A DNA stretch of 35,770 bases from an uncultured Candidatus Saccharibacteria bacterium (GTDB lineage: Bacteria > Patescibacteriota > Dojkabacteria > J137): positions 1 to 35,770 of the forward strand of contig OZ246402.1 of assembly GCA_965230975.1 (NCBI GenBank). The letters are read 5' to 3'. Shown here in pieces: positions 10,981 to 32,336 of the stretch. Below the pieces are notes generated by a model. The model ran no database searches. It was not told where the DNA came from and saw only the letters and a program-made list of their open reading frames with translations. The position numbers and the translations under genes are program-made. The first letter of the stretch is position 1. Every line of letters begins with the position of its first letter.

Positions 10981-11054
10981 TAGCAAAGGAGGGGATCGAA
11001 CCCTCGACCTCAGGTTTATGAATCCTGTGCTCTAACCAACTGAGCTACTTTGCT
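10981..11054 (-). tRNA. tRNA with CAU anticodon (elongator Met, or Ile2 if lysidine-modified)
   Basis: The revcomp reads AGCAAAGTAGCTCAGTTGGTTAGAGCACAGGATTCATAAACCTGAGGTCGAGGGTTCGATCCCCTCCTTTGCTA. The anticodon loop is UUCAUAA. A paired 1:72 (A:U) argues against an initiator. Met cannot be separated from Ile2 by eye. Confidence 0.85.
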
Positions 11055-11151: not shown

Positions 11152-11181
11152 AAAAGGCCTAACATACATGTTAGGCCTTTT
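11152..11181 (-). terminator. Hairpin terminator abutting the 3' end of tRNA-fMet
   Basis: A 13-bp perfect stem pairs AAAAGGCCTAACA with TGTTAGGCCTTTT around loop TACA. On the minus strand it is followed by a T-rich tract (TTTTGATTT). Confidence 0.6.
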
Positions 11182-11255
11182 GGTTGCGGGGGTCCGATTC
11201 GAACGGACGACCTTCAGGTTATGAGCCTGACGAGCTGCCACTGCTCTACCCCGCG
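11181..11255 (-). tRNA. Initiator tRNA-fMet (CAU), CCA encoded
   Basis: The revcomp reads CGCGGGGTAGAGCAGTGGCAGCTCGTCAGGCTCATAACCTGAAGGTCGTCCGTTCGAATCGGACCCCCGCAACCA. It is nearly identical in layout to E. coli tRNA-fMet and has the diagnostic C1xA72 mismatch. The anticodon loop is CUCAUAA. Confidence 0.92.
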
Positions 11256-12358: not shown

Positions 12359-13237
12359 ATGAAAAAAAACTCATCACTGACAAATTTAGAATTGATAAAT
12401 AACTTTACTGAATATCTTAAAGAAAACAACAAGTCAGTGTCAACAATAATAGCCTATAAGAAAGATTTGCAACAGTTTAATGAAATTAATAAAGACAAAA
12501 GCTTTGATTTATACACTCCTGATGACATAAAATCCGCTGTTAACGAGCTTAGAAATGTCCATAAAGTAACATTAAAAACTGTATCAAGAAAAATCAATAG
12601 TATTAGAAGCTTTTTTAAATATCTTTATTCGAATCAATTAGTTAGCAATAACCCTTCTACAGAAATTAGTCATCCTAAATATAGAAATAAAAAACCTAGA
12701 GTTTTATCTCAAATGGAATATTATGCTCTAAGGGAAGCTAGTAGAAATAACTTTAGATTAAATACCATGATCGAGTTATTGCTACAAACCGGATTAAGAA
12801 TTAGCGAGCTTTCAAATTTGCAAAAAAGAGACTTGTACTTAGATGAAAAGAACCCATATTTAGTTGTGAGAGGATATTCCAGTACAGACGAACGAAGTGT
12901 GCCACTTAATTATAAGATTAAAGTATGCTTAAGGAATTATTTAAATCAAGACAATACAAAATTCCAACCATTATTCTCTACCAAAACAGGTAAAAATATT
13001 GAAATTAGGAATATTAGAACATCTATAGATAAAGCTATTGCCAACGCTCAAATAAAAAATGCATGCGTTAACGACTTAAGAAACACTTTTATTGTTGCCC
13101 AACTAAGTAGTGGTATGAGTTTAGATTTCTTGGCAAAAATAGTTGGCCATAAAAATATAAATACTACACTTAAGTACACCATGATGCTTTCAAAGAAATA
13201 TCAGCCAAGTTCTGTAAATCATGTAGTAGAATTGTAA
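12359..13237 (+). CDS. Tyrosine recombinase (XerC/XerD-like or phage-integrase family)
   Basis: 292 aa. The N-terminal SAM-like domain includes FTEYLKENNKSVSTIIAYKKDLQQF. Catalytic residues are Arg in LLLQTGLRISEL, a second Arg in DLRNTF, and His...Tyr in GHKNINTTLKYT. The gene lies ~550 bp from a tRNA with att-like repeats. Confidence 0.85.
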   Translation: MKKNSSLTNLELINNFTEYLKENNKSVSTIIAYKKDLQQFNEINKDKSFDLYTPDDIKSAVNELRNVHKVTLKTVSRKINSIRSFFKYLYSNQLVSNNPSTEISHPKYRNKKPRVLSQMEYYALREASRNNFRLNTMIELLLQTGLRISELSNLQKRDLYLDEKNPYLVVRGYSSTDERSVPLNYKIKVCLRNYLNQDNTKFQPLFSTKTGKNIEIRNIRTSIDKAIANAQIKNACVNDLRNTFIVAQLSSGMSLDFLAKIVGHKNINTTLKYTMMLSKKYQPSSVNHVVEL

Positions 13238-13828: not shown

Positions 13829-13854
13829 GGGCTAAATTCTTTTAATTTACTGAA

Positions 13855-13928
13855 TAGGCCTGCGCGGGCTCGAACCGCGGACCCCAGCTTTATAAGAACT
13901 GTGCTCTAACCACCTGAGCTACAGGCCT
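13855..13928 (-). tRNA. tRNA-Ile with a genomically encoded UAU anticodon
   Basis: The revcomp reads AGGCCTGTAGCTCAGGTGGTTAGAGCACAGTTCTTATAAAGCTGGGGTCCGCGGTTCGAGCCCGCGCAGGCCTA. The acceptor is AGGCCUG/CAGGCCU and the D stem GCUC/GAGC. The anticodon stem is CAGUU/AGCUG with loop CUUAUAA (anticodon UAU). The T stem is CGCGG/CCGCG. Confidence 0.85.
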
Positions 13929-13944
13929 ATTCAGTAAACTGGTA

Positions 13945-14189: not shown

Positions 14190-16643
14190 TTAAAAGCCTA
14201 AACCACCAAAAAGACTATCTTTCTTATCCTCTTTTTCCTTCTCTTTGGTAAAGGTACTTCTTAATTTAATCTCGTTTTCTATAATATTTCTATCTCTACC
14301 ATATTTAAGCCTTGAAATTTGCCTTGCGACTTCTGCAATTTCTTGATTAGGCTTACCAATCATATCATAAGGAGAATCTCCATAAAAAGACCTACAAGAG
14401 AATGCAGGAGTTGGCTTACCATCTGTAAGCATTTTTAAATAGAAACTATAGTTTTCTACCTGTTGCAAATCTTTTGGATCAACTAAATCTTCCCCTACCA
14501 CTTTACCCAAAAAAGGTGCATCCTCTTCTCCAATTCTCATAATTGCTTTGTTTCCAACATTACCAAATACCGCATCTTTAATTTTGGTGTTGCCACCCTC
14601 TCTAGTTAACTGTCCCAAGAACTGATGCCCAATTGTAAGTGCAAGTTTGTATTTTCTAGCTTCAGATAGAATAGTTACAATTCCATCTGTTAAAAAGTTT
14701 TGAAACTCATCTACATACAAGTAAAATGGAGTTCTTTCTGACTCCGGAACATTCTCTCTTTCTAAGGCTCCTACCAAAAGTTTACCAACCAAAACCATAC
14801 CTAATAAAGATGCATTAAAGTCTCCAATCTTACCTTTTGAGAGCTTAACAATTAGAATCTTCTTTTTATCCATTATTTCTCTAAATTTTATGGATGATTC
14901 TTGCTGAGAAACTATTGGCCTTAAATATGCATTTGATAAAAAGCTTGCCATTTTAGATGTGACATATGGGGTAACATTTTTTAGAGAAACATCTCCACCC
15001 GCCTGCTCTGCTTGTTTTTTCCAAAAATCTACGGTTTCTTGATTTTTACATTTAGAAAGTTTATATGCTCTATAACCCTCATCTGCAAAAACTTTTGGCA
15101 CTTCAAGCAAGGTTGCACCAGATTCAGTGTCTTCTGTTAATAATAAAATTGCGTACCTAAAATATTGTTCAAACATTGGGCCTCCAGTGACCTTCAAGTT
15201 GTACAAGGTATCAAATATATTCAACATTTCATTAATTGCCAATGTTCTTTGCTCCTCGTTATTAAACTCTAACATGTTTATTCCCACAGGTCTTTCAAGA
15301 TCTGCTGGGTCTACAATTACAACGTCTTCTATTCTTTCTGGGGGTACTTGAGCCAAAATTTTCTCGGCATCTGTTCCGTGAGGGTCTATATACCCACAAC
15401 CATGACCCATTTTCATGTCTCTAATCATCATTCCACTCATGAAACCAGATTTACCTGTACCTGTTTGTCCAATAACATAAAAATGTCTCAGCCTATCTTC
15501 TGGCTTTAAAAAGATTTCTCTAAACTGACCTCTATATGTATTTCGGCCAACATACATATAGTCTTTTTGAAAGCTATTAGTTACAAAATCTGGTGCTGGC
15601 AAACGTTTTGCCAATTGCCATTTAATATACGGTGTTTTTATATTTCTGTTTGGGAAGTGAAAAAGAGTTGCAAGTTCTGATGTGTTAAGAACCATAGAAT
15701 CTGAAGGGATTCTATATATAAATTCTGCCACTATGTTTTTTAAATTTTCGCTAGAAACTTTCTTTAGTTTATTACTACCAATCTTGGTAAATGGCTCAAA
15801 AGAACTTAACATGTTTGTTAAATGAGTATCTGCAGAAAACTTATCATCAGAAATAACTACTAATCTTGCACAAACATTAAATACAGGTTTTTGTATTTTT
15901 TGTTCTACAAAAGATAAACCCTCATCTTCTTTTTTAGGTTTTGGAGTCTCTCCTTCTTTTGGTGCAGGAGGTGGTTCTTTCATTTTATTTACATAGTCTT
16001 TTGTTTTATTTCTCCACTCAGAATCTGCCGGGGTTATAATTACTTGAAATGCGGCAGCTTCTTTATCTTGCAATTTACTAAATGCATCTGTAAGTGTTGA
16101 AATTGTATCTACAGGTAGTTCTTCGTAAGTTTGTATTGGATATTTAGAGTCCTTATCTAAAATAAGACCCGTATATGCAACGTGACTATCATCATCTGGA
16201 AAAAGGTTGTATTCTTTTACTATAGTTATTTCTGCTGTTGGGTATGTTCCATTAATTTGCCTATCTACAAGGCTTGAGATTTTTTTAGGGCAAACTACAT
16301 AAAACTTGATAGTTTCTTTAAAAGCGACCATTTCAAAACTAATAAATGACCTGGCTTTAATGTGTTTATTTAAACCTTTTAACTTTTCACTTACACTCAG
16401 TAAACCTGAATACAATTGCTCTGCAGCTTTAATTTCCACATCATTATTTTGAGGCAATTTAATTTCGTAAAATACCAAATTTAAGCCCTTTTCTTTTAAT
16501 ACATTCTCTTTAAATTTATTAAAAAGTTTTAATGCAATTATGTAAAGCACTATGAAAATAATTATCACAGCTACCAAACCAATTCCCAATGGAACTAAAA
16601 AATTGAAGTTGAAGTTTGTATTTAATATACTTTGAGACCTCAT
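14190..16643 (-). CDS. Membrane-anchored T4SS-type P-loop ATPase (VirD4/TraD/TrwB-like coupling protein; VirB4-like not excluded)
   Basis: 817 aa. It has an N-terminal TM helix (LVPLGIGLVAVIIIFIVLYIIAL), a ~350-aa N-domain and a Pro/Lys/Glu-rich linker (EPPPAPKEGETPKPKKEDE). Walker A is VIGQTGTGKSG and Walker B is FYLYVDEFQNF. ARKYKLALTIGHQFLGQL resembles the TrwB/TraD GxQxxxQL block. Confidence 0.65.
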   Translation of the reverse strand: MRSQSILNTNFNFNFLVPLGIGLVAVIIIFIVLYIIALKLFNKFKENVLKEKGLNLVFYEIKLPQNNDVEIKAAEQLYSGLLSVSEKLKGLNKHIKARSFISFEMVAFKETIKFYVVCPKKISSLVDRQINGTYPTAEITIVKEYNLFPDDDSHVAYTGLILDKDSKYPIQTYEELPVDTISTLTDAFSKLQDKEAAAFQVIITPADSEWRNKTKDYVNKMKEPPPAPKEGETPKPKKEDEGLSFVEQKIQKPVFNVCARLVVISDDKFSADTHLTNMLSSFEPFTKIGSNKLKKVSSENLKNIVAEFIYRIPSDSMVLNTSELATLFHFPNRNIKTPYIKWQLAKRLPAPDFVTNSFQKDYMYVGRNTYRGQFREIFLKPEDRLRHFYVIGQTGTGKSGFMSGMMIRDMKMGHGCGYIDPHGTDAEKILAQVPPERIEDVVIVDPADLERPVGINMLEFNNEEQRTLAINEMLNIFDTLYNLKVTGGPMFEQYFRYAILLLTEDTESGATLLEVPKVFADEGYRAYKLSKCKNQETVDFWKKQAEQAGGDVSLKNVTPYVTSKMASFLSNAYLRPIVSQQESSIKFREIMDKKKILIVKLSKGKIGDFNASLLGMVLVGKLLVGALERENVPESERTPFYLYVDEFQNFLTDGIVTILSEARKYKLALTIGHQFLGQLTREGGNTKIKDAVFGNVGNKAIMRIGEEDAPFLGKVVGEDLVDPKDLQQVENYSFYLKMLTDGKPTPAFSCRSFYGDSPYDMIGKPNQEIAEVARQISRLKYGRDRNIIENEIKLRSTFTKEKEKEDKKDSLFGGLGF

Positions 16644-17781: not shown

Positions 17782-20322
17782 TTACAAAGACACTTTTATA
17801 ATTTTTGACCCATCTAAAACATACACTGTATTTGTTGATTGATCTACCACAACCTCTTTTATATTAGAAAATATATTCTCTGTACCTCTATAAACAAATT
17901 GCTGAATAAACTTTACATTTTTTTGTTCATTATCTATAACTTCAAATACCATGACTCTTTTATTTTTTGGATCTGCAACTGCCATATAGTTTTGGTCAAG
18001 ATCAATTGCTGTAGCTTGTGATAAGGAGTTGAAATCAGTTTGAGCAAAGTTTTGATATGTTTCATAATTCAAACTATTGTCACCTCCTGCCAAGTATCTT
18101 TTAATACCTGTGCCCTCAATCAAAACATAAATTTCGTAAGGCACAGAGATATCTATAGCCCTAGCGAATTCTGCATCTGTCTTCCAATTTGGAGGATTAA
18201 TCGTTACATAAATTGAGCCTCCGCCTCCATAAGAATTACCTACTTTATCTCGTTTGAATATTTGCTGATGATTTTGGTGCAATTCGTATAGAGCATCATT
18301 ATTTGAATATATTGCTGCTTCGCTAATATTACCTATTAAAGCTGTAGACAAGCCGGCTAACCTTGTAAATTCTCCGGATTGTGTATTTAAAATACCCATA
18401 GAGCTTGATGTATCTGAATCGTAAACAACTAGATTATTTGCAGCATTTCTAACTAAATGTGCTGGTGTATTTAAGTTTTTAATTAGCTCTTGAGCAGTAG
18501 AGTTTACGCCTGTATTTATTTTGTAAACTACATTTCTTTTAGCATCTGTTGCATACAAGCTACCATTTGCAATAGCTAAATCTGATAGATTTGTATCTGA
18601 AAATAACTTGCCAACATCAGTTACTAATTGAATGTTTGACTCGTTAATCTCTTTAATAAAAGATAATGAATCTTTAGCTAAATTAATTTTCACTTTAAGT
18701 CTATCTAATTCATCTGTAAAAAGGTTCTCTTTCTTTTGAGTATCAATAGATGTAGCAAGTGTAGTTAATTTATTGCTTAAAATATCTTTTTTTGTTTGAT
18801 CTTGATTCTTAACAGTCTCAACTTGACTTACCGCTTGGTTAACTTCAGATTCTAATTGAGACACTTTAGATGTAACATTTTGAATTCTTTCTGATTCCCT
18901 TCTTGAATTATCTGCATCTTTCCAAGCGAAATAAATCAAACCTACTAAAATAATTAGTACAATAACCATTATTACTCTATTACGTTTTAATTTATCTGCA
19001 TTCTTTCTTCTATCTAACCTATCTAAACCTATAACATCATTTTTTAAAAACTGTAAAAACTTACCAAATAATATTTTAATTTTTTGGAAAAGTGTTTTAG
19101 CAACTTGCTGATATGTTTTTTGACCTGTAGAGCCCTCGCCTTTTTTAAAAGCAAAATTTTCTTTTAATGTAGCAGCAGTATTTTTTACACTTTCAAAAGT
19201 ATTTGAGTTTGCATTTGGGTTTTGAACATATGAGTTGTTTAAACCATTGTTTGTTGACTTTGAATCCTGATATTCATTGCTTTGATCATCTTCAAATTCT
19301 GTAAATTCAGGACCAACCTGTGCTTTATTTTTGTAAGTTGGTAACTTGGATGCTAAACCAGAGACTTTTTGAGATACATTCTTAAACCGGTTACCAAACT
19401 TATTTACAAGACCTACTGTGGTTGTGCTCTCTTCTACTAAATCGATATCATTCTCTCTACCATCATTTGCCCATTCATTATCATAAGGTATTGATTCTGT
19501 TTGCTCACCCGTAGGGTTTAATTGAGTAGATGATTGTAAATCATTTGAGTTGGTAAATGTATCTTCATTAAAATCATTAGGTGTATCTTCTATAAATTCT
19601 CCTATAGGGACTTGAGAGTCAATAACTTCAGTTGTATTGTCTACATCTATAATAGGAGCTTGTGGTACTGGTGCAAATGAATTCCAATTTTCAGATTCGT
19701 CTGCAAAGATCAATATTGCAGAACCTTTATCTTCTGATATATCTCCAAGTAAATCTACTTGTAAATACTTTGCTAATTCTTCTAATTTTGATAGTGAACT
19801 TGTATAAGGTGTTGATGTTGTTAACAAGATTCTATCTGAACTCTCAAGCTTTAAGCTACCTGTTTTTACAAAGCCCATCATATTTGCATCTACCAACCCT
19901 TTTGAAATATCTACAAGCTTTTGATTTCTGTAAATAAATAACTTACTGTCTCCAATAACCCCAACTGTTAGCAAATCTTTATTAACAAGTGCAATAGACA
20001 TTTCTATATCCATCCCTTTTTCTAAAATCTCATCTTCTCTAGATACAATTACCTCTAGTTTGGTTTTCATTTTTTGCAAAGCTTCTTCTAGCTTTACAAT
20101 CTCATCCTCTTCGACTAAATCGTTATAGTAAGCATCTTGAAACTCGTCTAGTAGCATTTTAGCTATTCTTTCTAACTCTACATTTTCTGCGTCGGATTTG
20201 AGTCTTACAACACAAAATAACTCACTTTCAATCTCAGCGCCTTCATCTGGCCTATAGCCGTAAATACCAGACCAGTCGTTACCTGAAATCTTTCCAACTA
20301 AGTAATTCGCTTTTATATTCAT
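17782..20322 (-). CDS. Bitopic protein: N-terminal PP2C/SpoIIE-like domain, TM helix, coiled coil, C-terminal beta-propeller-like repeats
   Basis: 846 aa. PP2C-like blocks are LLTVGVIGDSKLFIYRNQKL, SDRILLTTS and GSAILIFAD, but no DGHGG-type metal motif is seen. A long N/S/T/Q-rich linker leads to the TM helix VIMVIVLIILVGLIYFAW and a coiled coil. Blade-like repeats include LYATDAKRNVVYKI, LVVYDSD, YMAVADPKNKRVMVFEV and VYVLDGSKIIKV. Confidence 0.5.
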   Translation of the reverse strand: MNIKANYLVGKISGNDWSGIYGYRPDEGAEIESELFCVVRLKSDAENVELERIAKMLLDEFQDAYYNDLVEEDEIVKLEEALQKMKTKLEVIVSREDEILEKGMDIEMSIALVNKDLLTVGVIGDSKLFIYRNQKLVDISKGLVDANMMGFVKTGSLKLESSDRILLTTSTPYTSSLSKLEELAKYLQVDLLGDISEDKGSAILIFADESENWNSFAPVPQAPIIDVDNTTEVIDSQVPIGEFIEDTPNDFNEDTFTNSNDLQSSTQLNPTGEQTESIPYDNEWANDGRENDIDLVEESTTTVGLVNKFGNRFKNVSQKVSGLASKLPTYKNKAQVGPEFTEFEDDQSNEYQDSKSTNNGLNNSYVQNPNANSNTFESVKNTAATLKENFAFKKGEGSTGQKTYQQVAKTLFQKIKILFGKFLQFLKNDVIGLDRLDRRKNADKLKRNRVIMVIVLIILVGLIYFAWKDADNSRRESERIQNVTSKVSQLESEVNQAVSQVETVKNQDQTKKDILSNKLTTLATSIDTQKKENLFTDELDRLKVKINLAKDSLSFIKEINESNIQLVTDVGKLFSDTNLSDLAIANGSLYATDAKRNVVYKINTGVNSTAQELIKNLNTPAHLVRNAANNLVVYDSDTSSSMGILNTQSGEFTRLAGLSTALIGNISEAAIYSNNDALYELHQNHQQIFKRDKVGNSYGGGGSIYVTINPPNWKTDAEFARAIDISVPYEIYVLIEGTGIKRYLAGGDNSLNYETYQNFAQTDFNSLSQATAIDLDQNYMAVADPKNKRVMVFEVIDNEQKNVKFIQQFVYRGTENIFSNIKEVVVDQSTNTVYVLDGSKIIKVSL

Positions 20323-24681: not shown

Positions 24682-25488
24682 TTAATTTTGAAGCCAAGTA
24701 CCCCGATCTGCAGTACTACCGCCTGTTGCGCACACAAAGAACATACGACTTGCTGCACCTGCTGAATCTGGAGCTAAGTTTTCTGTATATATTTGAGTGG
24801 TTGTAATATACCTTTCGCCACAAAAGATCATTGACCCCGGGTTGCTACAAGCTAATCCATCTGGCAATGTGCCCCCAGATTCACAAGTATTTCTAAGGTA
24901 AGTTTCGTTTCCAGTACATATGCTTGTAAAAAAGAATTGAAATCCGGGCATATTTACGTTGTAACATTCTACATCTGTATTTACACCAAGCAATCTAAAC
25001 ACCGTTGTTAAAATTGGAACTGCCAAAAAAACTAGTATAAAACCTATTACGTAATTAATTATCTTTTTTCTAAGCTCTACTAGTTGATTGTCAGAAGTTC
25101 CACCTCTTAAAATATATTGATAGCCTAAAACCACAAGTAACACAAAAGAAAAAGATGCAACGAGTGCCCAAATTATGTATAAAATTCTAATAAACCAAAG
25201 TTCTATCTGCTGCAAAGCTGGTGGTATTAAATAAGCTCTATCATCTCCGGAAACGCCATCATCATCTAGGCCTCTACATAAATAATAGCCTGTTGCACTA
25301 TCTTTATAAATCGTTGCACTACTTCTGTTTCCAAATTTATCTAAACATTGGTAAGATGCTTCATCGTTACCTGAAAATGGGTTTGTTTGAATTTGTGCTT
25401 GGGCAATAGTTGGGAAAGCGATAGTAAAAAGAAGGCCTAATACTAGGCCAACTTTTAATTTATTTTTAGGTAAACCTATTAAATTCAT
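24682..25488 (-). CDS. VirB2/TrbC-like pilin paralog 6 with Cys-containing N- and C-terminal extracellular extensions
   Basis: 268 aa. The signal peptide ends AFPTIAQA. The core is TM, RGGTSDNQLVELRKK, TM. There are 8 Cys, 6 of them in the ~95-aa C-terminal module. Confidence 0.5.
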   Translation of the reverse strand: MNLIGLPKNKLKVGLVLGLLFTIAFPTIAQAQIQTNPFSGNDEASYQCLDKFGNRSSATIYKDSATGYYLCRGLDDDGVSGDDRAYLIPPALQQIELWFIRILYIIWALVASFSFVLLVVLGYQYILRGGTSDNQLVELRKKIINYVIGFILVFLAVPILTTVFRLLGVNTDVECYNVNMPGFQFFFTSICTGNETYLRNTCESGGTLPDGLACSNPGSMIFCGERYITTTQIYTENLAPDSAGAASRMFFVCATGGSTADRGTWLQN

Positions 25489-25491
25489 TAA

Positions 25492-25980
25492 TTAGTTTAA
25501 ATCATTTGTAATTTGATCTACTCCTTCTTGTGGCAATGGGTTTGTTAATGCACCAGTTGCCTCAAATAGTACCAAAATCAAGACTAGGCCAATAACACCT
25601 ACAAACAATGCTATTAAACCAACAAATACGCTTTTAATTGCTTTTTGTGCAGATTCAATTTTATCTTTATCTCCTTCAGATCTAATATATTTAATAGCAG
25701 CTTTAATAACAATGTAAACAGCAACAACAATAATTGCAATAAAGATAAACGATGCTCCTAATCTTGCCAAGTTTACTGCTTGTTGTGCTAAAGTTGTTTT
25801 ATCTGGAACAGCATCGGCTTTTCCTGAACAAACGCTATCTATACCAAAAGCCCCAATGTTTTTAATGAATGGGAATATATCACAAACTACACTACCTGTT
25901 GTTTGTGCATGAACCGGAATTGGGTTTATAGTTAAAGTTGCTAATGCGATTGCTGTTGCTACCAAAAGTTTCCTAAACAT
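25492..25980 (-). CDS. VirB2/TrbC-like pilin paralog 5
   Basis: 162 aa. The signal peptide ends PVHAQ. The core is TM (ASFIFIAIIVVAVYIVI), KYIRSEGDKDKIESAQKAIK, TM (VFVGLIALFVGVIGLVLILVL). It has 2 Cys. Confidence 0.6.
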   Translation of the reverse strand: MFRKLLVATAIALATLTINPIPVHAQTTGSVVCDIFPFIKNIGAFGIDSVCSGKADAVPDKTTLAQQAVNLARLGASFIFIAIIVVAVYIVIKAAIKYIRSEGDKDKIESAQKAIKSVFVGLIALFVGVIGLVLILVLFEATGALTNPLPQEGVDQITNDLN

Positions 25981-26043
25981 AGTTATCTTTTAAAATCTAT
26001 AAATTAATTAAATCACAATTATTTTAACACTGCAATAGAATTA

Positions 26044-26493
26044 TTAAAGAATAGGTAAATCCACCAAAGGTGGATCTTCAACCTGCTCATTAAAAATACC
26101 TGTTGCATCAAATAATACTGATATTACTATAATACCTATTACACCAACAAAGATTATTATTATTCCAAAAAATACACCTCTAATATTTTCAATACCTTCT
26201 TGAACTTTATCTTTGTCTCCTTCACTTCTGACAATCTTTAATACTGCTCTAATAATTAAAATTATCCCAAGCCCAATTATTGCAACAAATACCAGCGTTA
26301 AACCAAGTTTTATTAAATTACCCGAATCTGTATATGCACTTGCACAATCACCATTTGGGCAGCCTCCAACATCTGCACAAGGTATAAAATCACATAATCC
26401 TTGTGCTTTAATGCTTAAGTTAAAAAGACCGGGTAAAAAAGACGAGAATATTAAGATTAGTGCAAAAAATATAGTAAATAGTTTTGTTTTCAT
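26044..26493 (-). CDS. VirB2/TrbC-like pilin paralog 4
   Basis: 149 aa with a signal peptide and the motif CDFIPCADVGGCPNGDC (4 Cys). The core is TM, KIVRSEGDKDKVQEGIENIR, TM. The loop is near-identical to paralog 5. Confidence 0.6.
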   Translation of the reverse strand: MKTKLFTIFFALILIFSSFLPGLFNLSIKAQGLCDFIPCADVGGCPNGDCASAYTDSGNLIKLGLTLVFVAIIGLGIILIIRAVLKIVRSEGDKDKVQEGIENIRGVFFGIIIIFVGVIGIIVISVLFDATGIFNEQVEDPPLVDLPIL

Positions 26494-26505
26494 ATTGTTT
26501 TTAAA

Positions 26506-27030
26506 TTAAATTAGGCCCCCTCCCCCTGATGACCCACCAGTGTTTGAGGTATAACCACATTCTGCATCTGCTTCTTCCCTAGCATTTGCTCCACCTTTAT
26601 CTAAAAATGCCTGGAAATAGTAGTCGTAATCTGCAGATTCACAAGATCTAAACATTCTAGGCCACTCAAATATTGTTCCTAGGCCAGCAAATATTCCAAT
26701 AATACTTAAAATGACAGGAAATAAAAAACTCATAAAAACCCCTAGCAATATGTTTTGAAGTTTTTTTATTAGTTCTTGAATCTTATCGGCCTTTCCACCG
26801 CTTTGCATTCCTTCTACCCCTAACTGCACAATTTTAACTATCCAAAAAGCTACTATACCCAAGGTTGCAATTACCCCTAAAAAGGAAAGTAATGAAAAAA
26901 CAGTAGATGCAGACCCTGCAACAGCGCTAAAATCTACAAATAGTGGAATTGTTATTGGTTTTAAATTAACTTCGTCTGGTAAGTTTACTGTTGATTGTTG
27001 CAAAATTGTACTAATTATAGTTTGTAACAT
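26506..27030 (-). CDS. VirB2/TrbC-like pilin paralog 3 (no obvious cleavable signal; C-terminal extension)
   Basis: 174 aa. The core is TM (FLGVIATLGIVAFWIV), GMQSGGKADKIQELIKKLQN, TM. The C-terminal tail has 2 Cys and a Gly/Ser-rich end. Confidence 0.5.
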   Translation of the reverse strand: MLQTIISTILQQSTVNLPDEVNLKPITIPLFVDFSAVAGSASTVFSLLSFLGVIATLGIVAFWIVKIVQLGVEGMQSGGKADKIQELIKKLQNILLGVFMSFLFPVILSIIGIFAGLGTIFEWPRMFRSCESADYDYYFQAFLDKGGANAREEADAECGYTSNTGGSSGGGGLI

Positions 27031-27032
27031 AT

Positions 27033-27770
27033 TTATTGAATAACAATTGTTGGCACACCGGAATCCACTGGTGCATCTGGGTTAACCTGAAAATTAATTG
27101 TATTTAATGCAGGCAAACCAAGTATGCTAAATATAATTTGGGTTATTAACAAGAATGTAAGCGCCAAAATAAAGCCAATCAAAATAGCCCTTGCTTCTTT
27201 ACTAACAGCTGCAATATCTTCTTCTTTTGTAGTATTTGGTAATTTTATAGCATATATATAAATACCTCTAAATGCAGCGTAAATTGCCAAAACACCTATA
27301 ACTGTTGAGAATATAAAATTAATGATTGTAGGGATTTTTTCGTATGTAATATTTACTTTTGTGTTAAATATTTCAAAAGCAAAAAAATTAAGCTCAGCTG
27401 GAGTATCTATAGCAACACTCTCGTCTTTACATTTATTTTCACAACAATCTACCCTGCCAGAAGAACCTGGAGTCGGTAATGATTTAGCTAAAATACATGC
27501 GTAATCGGGTTCATACTCTCCAGGTCCGGAACAACCTGCTGGAATACATGTAGATTGAATAGGACAAGCGCACACACCTGAACCACTAGAACTTTCTGTA
27601 CAGTAATATTGATTACCACCTCTAGTTGCACACCATTCAGTTACTAACTTACCCCTACAAAGTGAATCACTTAGTGGGCCACAATCTTGTGCCTTCACGT
27701 TATTAGAAACCAAGAACGATGCTATTACTAAGAAAGCTGTAAATAAAAATATTTTAAAGATATTATTCAT
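27033..27770 (-). CDS. VirB2/TrbC-like pilin paralog 2 with N-terminal 12-Cys module
   Basis: 245 aa with a signal peptide, then a ~90-aa module containing 12 Cys. The core is TM (FSTVIGVLAIYAAF), KLPNTTKEEDIAAVSKEAR, TM (ILIGFILALTFLLITQIIF). Confidence 0.5.
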   Translation of the reverse strand: MNNIFKIFLFTAFLVIASFLVSNNVKAQDCGPLSDSLCRGKLVTEWCATRGGNQYYCTESSSGSGVCACPIQSTCIPAGCSGPGEYEPDYACILAKSLPTPGSSGRVDCCENKCKDESVAIDTPAELNFFAFEIFNTKVNITYEKIPTIINFIFSTVIGVLAIYAAFRGIYIYAIKLPNTTKEEDIAAVSKEARAILIGFILALTFLLITQIIFSILGLPALNTINFQVNPDAPVDSGVPTIVIQ

Positions 27771-27773
27771 ATT

Positions 27774-28151
27774 TTAAAAAATATTAAGAGTATCTACTCC
27801 TAAGAAACTTGCAACCACACCTGTTATAGCTGGTGCGAATACTGCAATTGCCATACCAACAATTGCTGCAACAATAATATTTCTTGCTGTTTTAATTTTA
27901 CCCTCATCTCCTTGAGATGTTAGCCAAACCGCAGCAGCATAGAGAATCATTCCAATAAATGTGAGTATAAATAATGGTCTAATTAAGCTTGTTGCAAAGT
28001 TTATTACTTGTTCTAAATCATCAAATACAGTTGGATTTGGAATTTGAGGTAAACCCAAACTGCCAGAGCTAGCAAAAGTTGTAATTTTAAAAGATAAAGA
28101 AAAAACTAGCACTAATAAAAAAAGAACAAATTGTTTGGTTAACTTTTTCAT
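27774..28151 (-). CDS. VirB2/TrbC-like pilin paralog 1 (minimal form)
   Basis: 125 aa. The signal peptide ends TTFASS. The core is TM (LFILTFIGMILYAAAVWL), TSQGDEGKIKTARN, TM (IIVAAIVGMAIAVFAPAITGVV). It has no Cys. Confidence 0.6.
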   Translation of the reverse strand: MKKLTKQFVLFLLVLVFSLSFKITTFASSGSLGLPQIPNPTVFDDLEQVINFATSLIRPLFILTFIGMILYAAAVWLTSQGDEGKIKTARNIIVAAIVGMAIAVFAPAITGVVASFLGVDTLNIF

Positions 28152-28206: not shown

Positions 28207-30771
28207 TTACTTAACTTCTTGAATAGATAATCCGTTCAAAAAAACATCATCACCATCTTTTACATTACCTAAAATTATTTCATTTGCTAATATGTCTTCT
28301 ATTCTTTCTTGCACAACCCTTCTCAACTCTCTAGCACCCCACAATGGTGAGTAACCTATTTTGGCCAGTTCTTCTAATGTCTTATCATTCCAATGAATTA
28401 CAATACCTTTCTCGATTAACTTCGTATTGACTTCTGCTAAGAATTTCTCAACAATTTTTGTAATTTCTAACAAACTTAAATGTTTAAACATTATTAATTT
28501 ATCAAATCTATTTAAAAATTCAGGTCTAAAATAATTACTTAATATTTCTAAAGATGAACTTTTTATTTCTGAATAGCTCTCTTTTTGCTGGTATAACTTT
28601 TGAATCTCTTTTGACCCTACATTTGAAGTCATAATTATAATTGTATTGTAAAAATCTATTTTTCTTCCCATTCCATCTTTAAAGAATCCATCATCTAAGA
28701 CAGATAAAAATAAATCCAAAACTTTAGGATTTGCTTTTTCAATCTCATCTAATAATACCAAGGCAAAAGGCCTTGACCGAACTGTGTCTGCTAAAAAGCC
28801 TTTTGTATAACTCCCATCAGAATTATAACCACCTATCAATCTTGTTAAATTTTGCTCTTCTTGATATTCGGACATATCTATTCTAATCATTAAGTTCTCA
28901 CTTCCGTAATATAAATCTGCCAATGCTTTTGCTAATTCTGTTTTGCCTACCCCTGTTGGTCCGTAAAATAAAAACGAAGCTATTGGTTTTTTACTATTGG
29001 TTAATCCGGACCTTGATCTTTTAATTGCAGCAACTACAGGAGTTATTGCTTCGGTTTGACCAACTACTCTACTTTTTAAATTATCTTCCAAATTACCAAG
29101 CACCTGTTTTTCATCTATACCTAAGTTTCCAATCTTTACGCCAAGTTTTGTATAAAGAAGCTCTTCTACCAAAGAACCGTCCAAATAGTTGAAACCTTTA
29201 GACTTTGCCAAAACCATAGCCTCTTCTAATAAATCCATGCCTTTTAAAGGCATCTTTTTTTCGTAATCAAATTTATATGCATAATCTACAATTCTTTTAA
29301 GTGCCGAAAATTGAATAGATATTTGATTTTTGCTCTCTTTGCTAAGTGCTTCATCTGCCATTATTTGTAATGCAATTTGTGGGTCGGGCTCTTTAATTTC
29401 TAAAACATCAAATTTAGAAGCTAAATCTAAATCACTTTTTATATATTTTTGATAGTTTAATGGTTCATCAATCGCAATAAATTTAATTTTATTATCTAGT
29501 AGATTTTTTAATAGATTAACTGCTTCATCTTTCAAATTAGATCTAAAACTAAATAAACTTGTAAAGTTTTCACCAATTAATAGAATTTCACCAGATGCAG
29601 AAACCTCTTGAAATATTGCCAAAAATATTTTTTTTATATCTTCTATGCTTTGGGCATTTGCTATTATTTTTGCAAAGTTTAAAACAACAAGCCTACTATC
29701 TTTTAATTTTGAAGGCACGTCTTCTACTACCATTCTTGTAGCTAAATATTTTATAAAGGTTGTTTTGCCAACTCCACTTTCACCAAGCAAATAAACAAAT
29801 GTAGATGTATCTCTTTCTAGCAAAGACAATAAATTTGTCATTAACTCTTCTTTCCCAATTGAAATGCTAAAACTTCTGTTTGCGGCCTGGCTTGTTAAAT
29901 CTTGCCCGTATTTATCTAGCGTTGGAGTAATTGTAGATGTATATGTTGTATTTACGTCCCCAATCGGTTTAAGCTGGGACAAGATTTTCCATTTTTTTTG
30001 GTACTCAAATTTTTGATTTGAGTTAGAGTACCATTTTCTTAGGCCATCAAGTTCTAAATCTGTTACCTTGTTTTCTATCAAGCCAGGCCGCAAGTAATAT
30101 TTAAGCAATGTAAAAAATATTACATAAAGATTAATTCCAGATGTATTAAGTAAAATCCCTTCATTTAATAGTCTAGAAAAGAAATTTACATAATCTTCTG
30201 AAAAAGTTAAAAAGGTGGTTTTATTAACAAATTCATTTAATTGATCTGCATTTAACCCTAGCCTTTTTGAAAGGATGTTTGAAAACCTGGAGTCTTTTAT
30301 TAAGCTACTAAAAAGATATTTAATATAAGTGCTATCTTTATTATAAAGCTGATTTAATAACATTGAGGACTCTATATCTAAAAAGTCATTAATATAAAAC
30401 CCTTTTTCTTTTTTATTGGCAGATGCAAAGATTTTTGTGAGTTTTTGTTTTTTATGATTTAGTTCTAGGCTATTTCTGTCTCTTTTTAAAAAGTACCCAA
30501 TTATCAGTGAGACAATTAATAAATAAGGTATTAAATGTAATATACTTTTTGGCTTAATAAAATCTGCAAAATAGAATGTACCCTGTAATATCAAAATTCC
30601 AAAAACAATCAGTAATAAGATTATTGAAATTGAGATTAAAAAATTACCCAACTTTCTCTCTTGATTGTAACGTTCATGTTTTAAGCCGTTGTATTCAAAT
30701 AGTCTGCCAAAATCCAAGTAAATATAGATATTTCTAAATTCGAATAGTTTTTCAATACCTTGGTTTTTCAT
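28207..30771 (-). CDS. Membrane-anchored Hsp100/Clp-family double-AAA+ ATPase (ClpB/ClpA/ClpV-like; D1 degenerate, D2 intact)
   Basis: 854 aa with two N-terminal TM helices (FLISISIILLLIVFGILIL and LIPYLLIVSLIIGYF). D1 has Walker A GESGVGKT, but Walker B is ILLIGE (usual ILFIDE) and SKF replaces RRF. D2 has GPTGVGKTELAKALA, LVLLDEIEKA, MTSNVGS, PEFLNRFD and GARELRR. No M-domain-length insert or IGF/IGL ClpP loop is seen. Confidence 0.8.
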   Translation of the reverse strand: MKNQGIEKLFEFRNIYIYLDFGRLFEYNGLKHERYNQERKLGNFLISISIILLLIVFGILILQGTFYFADFIKPKSILHLIPYLLIVSLIIGYFLKRDRNSLELNHKKQKLTKIFASANKKEKGFYINDFLDIESSMLLNQLYNKDSTYIKYLFSSLIKDSRFSNILSKRLGLNADQLNEFVNKTTFLTFSEDYVNFFSRLLNEGILLNTSGINLYVIFFTLLKYYLRPGLIENKVTDLELDGLRKWYSNSNQKFEYQKKWKILSQLKPIGDVNTTYTSTITPTLDKYGQDLTSQAANRSFSISIGKEELMTNLLSLLERDTSTFVYLLGESGVGKTTFIKYLATRMVVEDVPSKLKDSRLVVLNFAKIIANAQSIEDIKKIFLAIFQEVSASGEILLIGENFTSLFSFRSNLKDEAVNLLKNLLDNKIKFIAIDEPLNYQKYIKSDLDLASKFDVLEIKEPDPQIALQIMADEALSKESKNQISIQFSALKRIVDYAYKFDYEKKMPLKGMDLLEEAMVLAKSKGFNYLDGSLVEELLYTKLGVKIGNLGIDEKQVLGNLEDNLKSRVVGQTEAITPVVAAIKRSRSGLTNSKKPIASFLFYGPTGVGKTELAKALADLYYGSENLMIRIDMSEYQEEQNLTRLIGGYNSDGSYTKGFLADTVRSRPFALVLLDEIEKANPKVLDLFLSVLDDGFFKDGMGRKIDFYNTIIIMTSNVGSKEIQKLYQQKESYSEIKSSSLEILSNYFRPEFLNRFDKLIMFKHLSLLEITKIVEKFLAEVNTKLIEKGIVIHWNDKTLEELAKIGYSPLWGARELRRVVQERIEDILANEIILGNVKDGDDVFLNGLSIQEVK

Positions 30772-31091
30772 ATTCTAAAGACAAATCTTATAACCCCGTA
30801 TACTGGTATAAAAGGTAATATTGCCAATAATACTAGTAATAAAATTGGGAGTACTACTTTAAAAATGCTAATTATGGTTCCCAAACTAATCCACCAAAAC
30901 TTTACTATCTTGCCAAACATAAGTCCAAAGCCGGAATTATCTTTATATAAAGGGATATTAAAAGTCTTTGCGAAAGGCAAAGCCCTGGTTTTATTCATAG
31001 AAAAAATAAAGGTTGCTAAGACTTTATCATTCAAAAAGCCCCAACAAACAACCGAATACCACCAGTTAAAAACTTCTAGAAACAAAGACAT
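30768..31091 (-). CDS. Small polytopic membrane protein, translationally coupled to the Clp-like ATPase
   Basis: 107 aa with hydrophobic helices (WWYSVVCWGFL, FWWISLGTIISIF and VLPILLLVLLAILPFIPVYGVI). Its stop overlaps the ATPase start in a 4-nt ATGA overlap. It is preferred over the mirror-image plus-strand ORF 30760-31104. Confidence 0.5.
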   Translation of the reverse strand: MSLFLEVFNWWYSVVCWGFLNDKVLATFIFSMNKTRALPFAKTFNIPLYKDNSGFGLMFGKIVKFWWISLGTIISIFKVVLPILLLVLLAILPFIPVYGVIRFVFRI

Positions 31092-31992: not shown

Positions 31993-32289
31993 ATGACTGC
32001 TCCTACTCCAGATAATAGACCGTTTGAGGAAAGGTATAATGAAACTAACCGTCGAACTACTGACAAATATAGGGCGACAGAAGGAATCAACCGTGCTGTC
32101 GTAACTGCAATACAAAATCTGATTGAAACCTTAGGTGCAGATCGTGATGTAGCAATCGAATTAGTTAGAGAGCAACTGGCGCTTTTGGGTAATAATAACT
32201 ATTTCCTTGATAATTTATATTCTACCTTTGAAATTCACCCTCAGAGTTTTGAGCCTGCTTCTGAAGAACCTAAAGATTCAGAATCTTAA
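31993..32289 (+). CDS. Hypothetical small acidic protein
   Basis: 98 aa with no motif. It is one of the few plus-strand genes and is followed by a strong terminator. Confidence 0.5.
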   Translation: MTAPTPDNRPFEERYNETNRRTTDKYRATEGINRAVVTAIQNLIETLGADRDVAIELVREQLALLGNNNYFLDNLYSTFEIHPQSFEPASEEPKDSES

Positions 32290-32306
32290 TATATATTTAT
32301 TATGTT

Positions 32307-32336
32307 AAAAAGGGCTCCCTTCGGGAGCCCTTTTTT
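32307..32336. terminator. Bidirectional rho-independent terminator between convergent genes
   Basis: AAAAAGGGCTCCC-TTCG-GGGAGCCCTTTTT forms a perfect stem with A and T tracts on both sides. It sits between the 31993-32289 stop and the groEL stop. Confidence 0.8.

What the first reader, a model, noticed from the sequence alone, without database searches (positions are those of the whole stretch)
28207..30771. The Clp-like ATPase combines an inactivated-looking D1 ring, an intact D2 ring, TM anchors and no ClpP-docking loop
Aligned by eye to E. coli ClpB, D1 keeps Walker A (GESGVGKT). Its Walker B is ILLIGE instead of ILFIDE, so the Mg-coordinating Asp is Gly. The sensor-1 GATT is AIDE, and the arginine-finger pair RRF is SKF. 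D2 has every catalytic element: GPTGVGKT, LLDEIEKA, TSNVGS, NRFD and GARELRR. D1 connects to D2 without a ClpB-length coiled-coil M-domain. I find no IGF/IGL tripeptide after the D2 sensor-1 region, which argues for a ClpP-independent unfoldase. Two TM helices precede a region that loosely resembles Clp N-domain repeats. Hsp100 proteins are normally soluble, so a membrane-integrated one with a pseudo-ATPase D1 is an unusual architecture.
Basis: partly seen in the sequence, partly recalled or inferred. Interest (0 to 1): 0.7.

Follow-up and report, generated by a model that had tools for sequence, protein, structure and literature searches.

The report
Membrane-anchored Clp ATPase with small partner
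This gene encodes a real membrane-tethered relative of the ClpB/ClpA protein-unfolding machines in which only the second ATPase ring looks active; it belongs to a large undescribed family in ultra-small Patescibacteria, always travels with a tiny membrane protein, and in this lineage heads a pilus/secretion gene cluster.

Summary
ORF 28207-30771 (-) encodes an 854-aa class-I Clp/Hsp100 ATPase. It has two N-terminal TM helices, a divergent Clp_N-fold domain, no M-domain and no ClpP-docking tripeptide. D1 keeps Walker A but has lost the Walker B Asp, sensor-1, both arginine fingers and the pore-loop Tyr. D2 keeps every catalytic motif, although its GYVG pore loop is non-canonical.

It is not a one-off. 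A profile search found over 100 clusters (50% identity) of 830-930-aa TM-anchored, M-domain-less Clp proteins. The named ones are all Patescibacteria, annotated only as "AAA family ATPase". Loss of the arginine fingers and D1 pore Tyr is family-wide. Loss of Walker B and sensor-1 is specific to this sublineage.

Two new points emerged:
- The overlapping upstream 107-aa membrane-protein gene (30768-31091) is a conserved partner, and in at least 8 clusters it is fused to the ATPase N-terminus.
- In about 20 Dojkabacteria loci the pair directly precedes six VirB2-like pilin genes of a T4SS-like cluster. Five distant relatives lack that context.

Best reading: a ClpP-independent, D2-driven membrane-proximal unfoldase or extractase, possibly serving the pilin/T4SS apparatus. 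The function is inferred, and whole-genome absence of clpP is untested.

The parts
28207..30771 (-). TM-anchored class-I Clp/Hsp100 ATPase gene (854 aa)
   Evidence: ORF. Pfam AAA_2 at 595-758 and ClpB_D2-small at 767-843. PDB phmmer gives ClpB at 4.5e-103. AF2 model pLDDT 86. Foldseek matches ClpC/ClpB/ClpA protomers with TMt up to 0.86.
30768..31091 (-). 107-aa integral membrane protein ('o107'), the conserved partner gene. Its stop overlaps the clp start (ATGA).
   Evidence: Sequence at the junction. Present directly upstream in about 20 Dojkabacteria loci and in the distant locus L030 (E 1e-11). Fused to the N-terminus of the TM-Clp in P0178, P0179, P0172, P0107, P0113, P0140, P0016 and others. 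No Pfam family; all homologues are named 'hypothetical'.
30682..30771 (-). Cytoplasmic N-terminal beta-hairpin segment (residues 1-30), with conserved DF..L....G.R
   Evidence: AF2 strands 6-12 and 15-20. G29 is invariant in the family.
30484..30681 (-). TM hairpin: TM1 residues 31-62, short outside loop, TM2 residues 77-96, followed by a conserved KRDRN
   Evidence: Hydropathy. AF2 helices. Conserved in 115 of 117 family representatives. Basic residues flank both cytoplasmic ends, read directly from the sequence.
29977..30477 (-). All-alpha N domain (residues 99-265) with a divergent Clp_N fold
   Evidence: AF2. Foldseek top 50 are nearly all Clp/Hsp100 N-type domains (two unannotated) (PfHSP101, ClpB, ClpC, ClpV, Hsp104). 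No sequence-level signal.
29926..29976 (-). N-D1 linker (residues 266-282) with a conserved KPxGxVNRAYTS-type motif
   Evidence: 47-82% identity within the family, although pLDDT is below 50 at residues 269-275.
29197..29925 (-). D1 AAA+ module (residues 283-525), degenerate. Walker A at 29761-29784; pore loop without Tyr at 29632-29661; Walker B ILLIGENF at 29563-29586; sensor-1 position AIDE at 29464-29481; arginine-finger position SKF at 29407-29424.
28210..29178 (-). D2 AAA+ module plus small domain (residues 532-854), catalytically canonical. Walker A at 28939-28962; non-canonical pore loop at 28795-28833; Walker B at 28732-28755; sensor-1 at 28612-28629; segment equivalent to the ClpP loop, without IGF/IGL, at 28561-28599; arginine finger at 28501-28512; sensor-2 GAR at 28318-28338.
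24682..28151 (-). Six co-directional VirB2-like pilin paralogues, each a signal peptide plus two TM helices: 27774-28151, 27033-27770, 26506-27030, 26044-26493, 25492-25980 and 24682-25488. They start 55 nt after the clp stop.
   Evidence: Pfam T4SS_pilin PF18895 on two of them. NCBIfam Mbov_0395 pilin-like on a third. TM pattern. Gene order conserved in about 20 loci.
14190..16643 (-). VirB4/VirD4-superfamily T4SS ATPase (817 aa) at the far end of the same conserved cluster
   Evidence: Pfam TraG-D_C and DUF87. NCBIfam TrbC/TraD/VirD4-like. In L011 it lies directly upstream of o107-clp.
32300..32335 (-). Intrinsic-terminator-like hairpin just after groEL (GGGCTCCC-GAAG-GGAGCCC-TTTTT). It separates groESL from the clp unit.
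   Evidence: Read from the sequence. An opposite-strand ORF (31993-32289), a second terminator-like site (31739-31712) and a HAD gene lie in between.

Best explanation
The gene encodes a membrane-tethered, ClpP-independent AAA+ unfoldase of a Patescibacteria-wide Clp/Hsp100 family that has not been described.

Proposed mechanism:
- An N-in/C-in TM hairpin places the N-domain/D1 face of the presumed hexamer against the cytoplasmic side of the membrane.
- D1 still has a P-loop but has lost the residues needed for hydrolysis and for gripping substrate. It most likely serves as a nucleotide-binding assembly ring.
- D2 is the only motor.
- With no M-domain, the protein cannot be coupled to DnaK in the way ClpB is.
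- With no IGF/IGL loop, it cannot dock ClpP in the known way.
- It works together with the 107-aa integral membrane protein encoded by the overlapping upstream gene.

Most likely job: ATP-driven pulling, unfolding or remodelling of membrane-embedded or membrane-proximal proteins, moving them from the membrane side towards the cytosol. In Dojkabacteria its preferred clients are probably the VirB2-like pilins or other parts of the T4SS-like apparatus encoded just downstream.

Shown here: the architecture, the motif states, family breadth, the partner-gene link and the synteny. Inferred: hexamer formation, the topological argument, substrate identity and ClpP independence.
For: Architecture and motifs.

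D1 degeneration is evolutionary, not a sequencing error:
- The closest relatives P0002 and P0003 share [GA][ED]N and A[IV]DE at the Walker B and sensor-1 positions.
- All about 20 Dojkabacteria sequences lack the arginine fingers and the D1 pore Tyr.
- D1 is still conserved at 34-67% identity, which points to a retained structural role.

D2 motifs are kept in at least 112 of 117 family representatives.

The TM anchor is present in 115 of 117 representatives. Basic residues flank the cytoplasmic ends of the hairpin, and TM2 runs straight into the N domain. The pore entrance therefore faces the membrane, as it does in FtsH and Msp1 (my own knowledge of those systems).

Partner gene:
- ATGA overlap with the clp start.
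- Adjacency in about 20 Dojkabacteria loci and in distant L030; L029 is weaker.
- Gene fusions in at least 8 clusters, E 4e-15 to 7e-8.

Operon with pilins:
- 55-nt gap, same strand, and no terminator-like site between clp and the first pilin gene.
- The order is conserved down to 36% protein identity.
- groESL adjacency is broken in L011, L012, L014 and L018, while o107-clp-pilin is kept.
- In this window groESL is cut off by a terminator and an opposite-strand gene.
Against: - There is no experimental data of any kind.
- Five distant family members sit in housekeeping contexts with no pilin genes within 8-10 kb. A T4SS-specific role therefore cannot be the ancestral function.
- The D2 pore loop lacks GYVG. 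Only 45 of 117 family representatives have any aromatic residue there, which weakens the assumption of classical processive threading.
- Whole genomes could not be searched for clpP, clpX or a second Clp ATPase.
- In relatives with LEE, LED or IDD at Walker B and a Thr at sensor-1, some D1 hydrolysis cannot be excluded.
- Hexamer formation and membrane topology are predicted, not shown.
Confidence: 0.5

Rival explanations
1. It is simply the lineage's general stress chaperone, a ClpB/ClpC replacement that acts on cytosolic aggregates or misfolded proteins. The membrane anchor only localises it, and the adjacency to pilin genes is a frozen accident of gene order.
For: D2 is most similar to ClpB and ClpC D2. 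The gene usually lies just downstream of groES-groEL in Dojkabacteria. Distant family members sit in housekeeping neighbourhoods such as ribosomal genes, prfA, secDF, the dcw cluster and tRNA synthetases. The family is very widespread in reduced genomes.
Against: There is no M-domain, so the DnaK-dependent disaggregation mechanism of ClpB is unavailable. The D1 pore Tyr is lost and the D2 pore loop is non-canonical. groESL is a separate transcription unit here, and its adjacency is lost in 4 loci while the pilin adjacency never is. No CIRCE element is present in the window. A conserved membrane partner that is sometimes fused argues that the membrane is integral to the function.
Confidence: 0.22
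2. It is a dedicated secretion motor. It unfolds substrates and feeds them outward into the T4SS-like channel, as HSP101 does in the Plasmodium PTEX translocon, or it replaces a missing VirB11-type ATPase.
For: It stands at the head of a conserved T4SS-like cluster. In L011 the VirB4/VirD4-like ATPase gene is directly upstream. The best structural matches of the N domain are PfHSP101 N domains. The published survey of the Patescibacteria T4SS lists no VirB11 and no unfoldase.
Against: The anchor is N-terminal. Hsp100 machines thread from the N-domain/D1 side to D2 (established for ClpB, ClpA and Hsp104; my own knowledge). Threading would therefore run away from the membrane, which is the wrong direction for export. 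Family members in other Patescibacteria are not next to T4SS genes. The N-domain match is weak (E 0.02) and not specific to HSP101.
Confidence: 0.1
3. It is the ATPase partner of a peptidase after all (ClpP through a non-canonical contact, or FtsH/Lon-like partners), that is, a membrane-bound protease complex.
For: The overall D1-D2 arrangement without an M-domain is ClpA-like. An FtsH gene lies in the window, and a Lon-AAA-only gene lies near the locus in relatives.
Against: No IGF, IGL or VGF tripeptide is present; the equivalent segment is ClpB-like in the whole family. No clpP, clpX or clpS was found in the window or in about 583 kb of related loci. That sample is local, not genome-wide.
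Confidence: 0.08
4. It is a largely non-enzymatic scaffold, a pseudo-ATPase whose rings organise membrane complexes without translocating any substrate.
For: D1 is degenerate, and even Walker A decays in P0003 (GVGKQ). Pore-loop aromatics are missing in D1 throughout and in the D2 of most family members.
Against: D2 Walker A, Walker B, sensor-1, arginine finger and sensor-2 are invariant or nearly so across more than 110 divergent representatives. This indicates selection for hydrolysis.
Confidence: 0.05

Closest known systems
ClpB / Hsp104 (class-I Hsp100 disaggregases)
   Same: Clp_N-fold N domain, two AAA+ modules, and a D2 of the AAA_2 type with the ClpB_D2-small domain. The best sequence matches are ClpB D2 (265 bits). 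No ClpP-docking loop.
   Different: No coiled-coil M-domain (7 residues against 129). A TM hairpin is present. D1 lacks the Walker B Asp, sensor-1, arginine fingers and pore Tyr. D2 GYVG is replaced. TIGR03346 scores 434 against a cutoff of 1232.
ClpA / ClpC (ClpP-coupled class-I unfoldases)
   Same: D1 joins D2 directly, as in ClpA. A single HMMER stretch covers residues 249-843 of the query against the ClpA model. The best Foldseek hits are ClpC protomers.
   Different: No IGL or VGF loop, no clpS or clpP nearby, degenerate D1, and a membrane anchor. TIGR02639 scores 396 against a cutoff of 993.
ClpV / TssH of type VI secretion
   Same: An Hsp100 that works without ClpP and is encoded inside a secretion-system gene cluster, where its N domain binds a component of the machine (my own knowledge; ClpV N domains appear among the fold matches).
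   Different: ClpV is soluble and belongs to the T6SS. TIGR03345 scores 344 against a cutoff of 885. No T6SS genes are present here.
Plasmodium HSP101 in the PTEX translocon
   Same: An Hsp100 working at a membrane together with membrane proteins. Its N domain is the top structural match (4iod/4irf).
   Different: HSP101 has no TM helices of its own, keeps an M-domain, and docks on the pore with its D2 face. Here the anchor is at the N-terminal, D1 side.
Pex1/Pex6-Pex15, Msp1/ATAD1 and FtsH (membrane-tethered AAA+ extractases; analogy from my own knowledge)
   Same: AAA+ rings held at a membrane by their own N-terminal TM helices (Msp1, FtsH) or by a small membrane partner (Pex15/Pex26). They pull proteins out of the membrane. 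Pex1/Pex6 also has an inactive D1 ring and an active D2 ring.
   Different: They belong to different AAA+ clades, with no Clp_N domain and no ClpB-type D2. FtsH carries its own protease.

Membership tests
Clp/Hsp100 class I (two-ring) superfamily | Two tandem AAA+ modules, with D2 of the AAA_2 type plus the C-terminal D2-small domain | tested here: met
   Pfam AAA_2 9.5e-50 and ClpB_D2-small 3.8e-20. D1 aligns to ClpB/ClpA D1. Foldseek TMt 0.8-0.86 to ClpC, ClpB and ClpA.
Clp/Hsp100 class I (two-ring) superfamily | Clp_N-type N-terminal domain | tested here: inconclusive
   No Pfam Clp_N hit and no hhalign signal. The predicted fold matched Clp-type N domains in nearly all top-50 PDB hits, at weak E-values of 0.02-2. 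A distant family member, P0072, has a weak Pfam Clp_N hit.
ClpB / Hsp104 | Coiled-coil M-domain inserted in the D1 small domain (the DnaK/Hsp70 coupling site) | tested here: not met
   7 residues stand in place of ClpB 400-528.
ClpB / Hsp104 | Score above the curated equivalog cutoff (TIGR03346 / NF008118) | tested here: not met
   433.6 against 1232.1, and 364.1 against 1417.
ClpB / Hsp104 | Catalytically competent D1 (Walker B DE, sensor-1, arginine fingers) with a pore-loop Tyr | tested here: not met
   IGE, AIDE, SKF and QSIE at the respective positions.
ClpA / ClpC / ClpE (ClpP partners) | IGF/IGL/VGF ClpP-docking tripeptide loop in D2 | tested here: not met
   The segment aligned to ClpA SIGL is KLYQQKESY. 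No [ILVM]G[FLM] occurs in D1 or D2.
ClpA / ClpC / ClpE (ClpP partners) | A clpP gene in the genome | not testable with these tools
   No clpP in the window or in about 583 kb of related loci.
ClpA / ClpC / ClpE (ClpP partners) | Score above the ClpA equivalog cutoff (TIGR02639) | tested here: not met
   396.4 against 993.15.
ClpV / TssH | Score above the TIGR03345 cutoff and location in a T6SS gene cluster | tested here: not met
   343.7 against 884.95. The neighbours are T4SS-like pilins, not T6SS genes.
Patescibacteria TM-anchored Clp family (defined here) | N-terminal TM helices, Clp_N-like domain, D1 without a pore Tyr, no M-domain and a canonical D2 | tested here: met
   The window protein plus 115-117 representatives share these features.
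Patescibacteria TM-anchored Clp family (defined here) | An o107-type small membrane protein encoded directly upstream or fused at the N-terminus | tested here: met
   Window 30768-31091; about 20 Dojkabacteria loci; L030; fusions. Not found upstream in L031 or L028 (L028 carries the fusion instead).

The most novel reading that the evidence does not exclude
The small membrane protein and the TM-anchored Clp ATPase together form a previously unrecognised membrane machine of Patescibacteria. In Dojkabacteria it would have been recruited as the dedicated extraction, assembly or recycling motor for the VirB2-like pilins of the T4SS-like apparatus thought to support the epibiotic lifestyle. That would make it a T4SS counterpart of ClpV in the T6SS, or of PilT in type IV pili.
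Probability: 0.2. Interest if true: 0.8.

Novelty: new variant of a known kind. Interest (0 to 1): 0.62.

Why it matters
All characterised Hsp100/Clp unfoldases are soluble (my own knowledge). This family shows that a whole bacterial radiation with minimal genomes has kept a membrane-integrated version. It has a single active ring, no Hsp70-coupling domain, no ClpP dock and an obligate small membrane partner.

If it extracts or remodels membrane proteins, it would be a bacterial Clp-clade analogue of Msp1, Pex1/Pex6 or FtsH. It would also be a handle on how Patescibacteria maintain their envelope and their pilus/T4SS-like host-interaction apparatus.

The naturally inactivated D1 series runs from the canonical D1 in the fused forms, through LEE, LED and IDD variants, to IGEN and IADN. 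It is a ready-made evolutionary experiment on ring specialisation in double-ring AAA+ machines.

Surveys of the Patescibacteria T4SS that I could read do not mention this gene.

Tried and rejected
- The TM helices do not belong to a separate upstream ORF. The frame is continuous and homologues align from residue 1.
- Sequence-level similarity of residues 100-262 to the E. coli ClpA and ClpB N domains by hhalign gave no signal, probability below 1%. Only the predicted fold supports Clp_N.
- The idea that the gene is part of a groESL heat-shock operon is rejected for this window. A terminator hairpin, an opposite-strand ORF and a HAD gene intervene, and there is no CIRCE element. The adjacency is lost in 4 related loci.
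- A T4SS-specific function for the whole family is rejected. Five non-Dojkabacteria contexts lack pilin genes.
- The 846-aa downstream ORF is not an ATPase: it has no P-loop family hits and only weak beta-propeller-like hits.
- tblastn searches for clpP, clpX and clpS with the E. coli proteins, over the window and all held loci, found nothing except cross-hits of ClpX to the Clp D2 itself. They did find a Lon-AAA-only gene.
- Literature searches for a membrane-anchored bacterial Hsp100, or for Clp in Patescibacteria T4SS papers, found nothing relevant.
- No curated phylogeny against ClpC, ClpE, ClpL, ClpV and Hsp104 was built. Only the E. coli ClpA and ClpB reference sequences were available to the scripts.
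Full report
**1. The object**

Window 28207-30771 on the minus strand is one uninterrupted ORF of 854 codons starting at ATG. Its start overlaps the stop of an upstream 107-codon ORF by 4 nt, ATGA. The window has about 31% G+C. It carries rRNA, tRNA, polA, ftsH, smpB and groES/groEL genes, so it is chromosomal DNA. The closest relatives of the protein and of the whole gene neighbourhood are MAGs labelled Candidatus Dojkabacteria, WS6 or Patescibacteria.

**2. Check of the observation**

Pfam finds AAA_2 (595-758, 9.5e-50) and ClpB_D2-small (767-843). Over D1 it finds only generic P-loop hits. The NCBIfam models for ClpB, ClpA, ClpK, ClpV and ClpG all match, but far below their curated cutoffs.

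D1 was compared with T. thermophilus and E. coli ClpB by HMMER and with E. coli ClpA and ClpB by MAFFT.

| D1 element | This protein | ClpB |
|---|---|---|
| Walker A | GESGVGKT (330-337), intact | GEPGVGKT |
| Walker B | ILLIGENF (Asp to Gly, Glu kept) | ILFIDELH |
| Sensor-1 | IAIDE | VGATT |
| Arginine fingers | LASKFD | LERRFQ |
| Pore loop | ANAQSIEDIK (Tyr lost) | AGAKYRGEFE |

The D2 catalytic elements are all present and fall in invariant alignment columns: GPTGVGKT, LLDEIEKA, TSNVGS, NRFD and GARELRR.

The D2 pore loop reads GGYNSDGSYTKGF where ClpB has GAPPGYVGYEEGG. The family consensus is D-x-G-N-[FY]-x-G-G, so an aromatic residue is kept in most Dojkabacteria members but the GYVG motif is not.

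- **M-domain:** only 7 residues occupy the place of ClpB 400-528, which is like ClpA with 11.
- **ClpP loop:** the segment aligned with the ClpA IGL loop is KLYQQKESYSEIK. The only [ILVM]G[FLM] tripeptide in the protein is in the N domain.
- **TM helices:** two are predicted by hydropathy and by AlphaFold2 (helices 31-62 and 77-96; mean pLDDT 86). Homologues align from residue 1.
- **N domain:** residues 99-265 show no sequence similarity to Clp_N. A separate model of that region (pLDDT 83) matched Clp/Hsp100 N domains (or ClpC2 N-domain-like domains) in nearly all of its 50 best PDB matches, two being unannotated: PfHSP101, ClpB, ClpC/ClpC1, ClpV, Hsp104 and ClpA, with TM 0.45-0.63.
- **Whole protein:** the full model superposes on ClpC, ClpB and ClpA protomers with TMt up to 0.86.

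**3. It is a family, not a singleton**

A word-indexed search found 13 full-length relatives at 37-66% identity. A profile of the TM, N-domain and D1 part, searched against 1.84 billion representatives, gave 3375 hits at E ≤ 1e-30. The best 150 are almost all 830-930-aa proteins.

Counts among the 117 full-length representatives:

| Feature | Number of 117 |
|---|---|
| N-terminal TM helix | 115 |
| M-domain | 0 |
| D1 pore aromatic | 8 |
| D1 Walker B "DE" | 10 |
| D1 "RR" arginine fingers | 8 |
| D1 Walker A GK[TS] | 75 |
| D2 Walker B | 116 |
| D2 arginine finger | 115 |
| D2 GAR sensor-2 | 112 |
| D2 sensor-1 Asn | 117 |
| Any aromatic in the D2 pore loop | 45 |

Where sources give a name, it is "AAA family ATPase [Patescibacteria group bacterium]" or an automatic "ClpC".

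Within Dojkabacteria, loss of the arginine fingers and of the D1 pore Tyr is universal. Walker B varies (LEE, LED, IDD, LDN) and sensor-1 Thr is usually kept. Only the window protein and its two closest relatives have [GA][ED]N and A[IV]DE, and one of these relatives has also lost the Walker A Thr. D1 degeneration is therefore progressive and real. D1 is still conserved at 34-67% identity, which fits a retained structural role.

**4. A conserved membrane partner**

The 107-aa upstream ORF (30768-31091) is hydrophobic. It has no Pfam family, and all its homologues are annotated "hypothetical".

- A homologue lies immediately upstream of the clp gene in all about 20 Dojkabacteria loci examined.
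- The same holds in a distant lineage, L030 (hmmsearch E 1e-11, 4-nt gap).
- The link is weaker in L029 (hhalign probability 84%).
- The same domain forms the N-terminus (residues about 2-105) of the TM-Clp protein itself in P0178 (4e-15), P0179, P0172, P0156, P0107, P0113/HLD11399.1, P0140 and P0016 (7e-8; hhalign probability 93.5%).

Gene adjacency across deep divergence, together with repeated fusion, is strong evidence that the two proteins work as one unit. The fused forms keep a near-canonical D1 (IDE, GATT, one Arg) but no D1 pore Tyr. The extreme D1 decay seen here is therefore derived.

**5. Genomic context**

The six ORFs downstream on the same strand (24682-28151) each consist of a signal peptide plus two TM helices. 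Two match Pfam T4SS_pilin PF18895, and one matches a mycoplasma ICE pilin-like family.

Further downstream lie a SpoIID-domain protein, unknown proteins, smpB and an 817-aa VirB4/VirD4-superfamily ATPase.

The order [groES-groEL]-o107-clp-pilins-...-SpoIID-...-ATPase is conserved in about 20 loci, down to 36% Clp identity.

- The groESL adjacency is interrupted or absent in L011 (where the T4SS ATPase gene is inserted), L012, L014 and L018. The o107-clp-pilin order never is.
- In this window groEL is followed by a strong terminator hairpin, an opposite-strand ORF, a second terminator-like site and a HAD gene. No CIRCE element is present.
- clp and the first pilin gene are 55 nt apart, with no terminator-like site between them.
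- Five family members from other Patescibacteria lineages are not near pilin or T4SS genes.

The T4SS link is thus lineage-specific, whereas the o107 link is family-wide.

**6. Mechanism (inferred)**

Basic residues flank the cytoplasmic ends of the TM hairpin, and TM2 runs directly into the N domain. The N-domain/D1 face of a presumed hexamer would therefore lie against the inner face of the membrane.

Hsp100 machines thread substrate from the N/D1 side to D2 (my own knowledge). Substrate would then be pulled from the membrane side into the cytosol. This is the geometry of FtsH, Msp1/ATAD1 and membrane-recruited Pex1/Pex6, the last of which also has an inactive D1 and an active D2 (my own knowledge).

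- Without an M-domain, the protein cannot use the ClpB-DnaK mechanism.
- Without the IGF/IGL loop, it cannot dock ClpP in the known way.

I therefore favour a D2-driven, ClpP-independent membrane-proximal unfoldase or extractase that acts with o107. In Dojkabacteria the co-transcribed pilins or the T4SS-like apparatus are its likely clients (confidence about 0.5 for the general model, lower for the clients).

Rivals:
- a general cytosolic chaperone (0.22);
- an outward secretion motor of the PTEX type (0.10), disfavoured by the topology;
- a protease partner after all (0.08);
- a non-translocating scaffold (0.05), disfavoured by the strict conservation of D2.

The weak point of every threading model is the non-canonical and poorly conserved D2 pore loop.

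**7. Comparison with known systems, and novelty**

The protein belongs to the class-I Clp/Hsp100 superfamily. It fails the defining tests for three known families:
- ClpB: M-domain, active D1 and the curated cutoff;
- ClpA/ClpC: docking loop and the curated cutoff;
- ClpV: the curated cutoff and the gene context.

Papers on the Patescibacteria T4SS and a recent perspective on Patescibacteria biology do not mention a Clp or AAA+ component. Full-text searches for a membrane-anchored bacterial Hsp100 found nothing relevant. I rate it a new variant of a known kind: a widespread but undescribed membrane-integrated Hsp100 subfamily with a dedicated small membrane partner.

**8. Limits**

- All functional statements are inference.
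- Whole-genome absence of clpP or of other Clp ATPases could not be tested. Only the window and about 583 kb of related loci were searched, and no clpP, clpX or clpS was found there.
- Topology, hexamer formation and the o107 contact are predictions.
- The N-domain fold assignment rests on weak Foldseek E-values, though the hit list is highly consistent.

Noticed in passing
L001 837-2006 (also L003, L005, L007-L010, L013, L014, L020-L023): Dojkabacteria relatives carry a 389-442-aa protein about 8 kb upstream of the clp gene. It consists only of the Lon AAA+ module (TIGR00763 4e-104 over model positions 250-572; aligns to E. coli Lon 249-579), with no N domain and no protease domain. This is another 'orphan' AAA+ unfoldase module near the same locus.
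   Followed up: partly
window 13854-13929 (-): A tRNA-Ile with anticodon UAU (ARAGORN). It lies next to two tRNA-Met(CAU) genes (10981-11054, 11181-11255) and a tyrosine recombinase gene (12359-13237, +).
   Followed up: no
window 1-993 (-): The 5' part of the 23S rRNA spans 993 nt but covers only model positions 1-843. This suggests about 150 nt of extra sequence, possibly an insertion.
   Followed up: no
window 8479-10824 (-): FtsH (781 aa) has an unusually long segment of about 215 aa between its two TM helices (45-74 and 289-317).
   Followed up: no
window 29908-29973 (-), residues 267-288: The N-D1 linker motif LKPxGxVNRAYTSxxTPxLD is better conserved in the family (47-82% identity) than the N domain. 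Even so, it is predicted to be disordered (pLDDT below 50 at residues 269-275). It may be an interaction motif.
   Followed up: no
window 24682-28151 (-): Six tandem paralogous VirB2-like pilin genes. Several have Cys-rich ectodomains: 12 Cys in the 245-aa protein and 8 in the 268-aa protein.
   Followed up: partly
window 17782-20322 (-): An 846-aa conserved protein of the T4SS-like cluster has no family assignment. It has one central TM helix and weak similarity to beta-propeller ('Pizza') proteins.
   Followed up: partly
window 32300-32335 (-) and 31993-32289 (+): A strong terminator hairpin lies immediately after groEL. A 98-aa ORF with no family hit sits on the opposite strand between groEL and the HAD gene.
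   Followed up: partly
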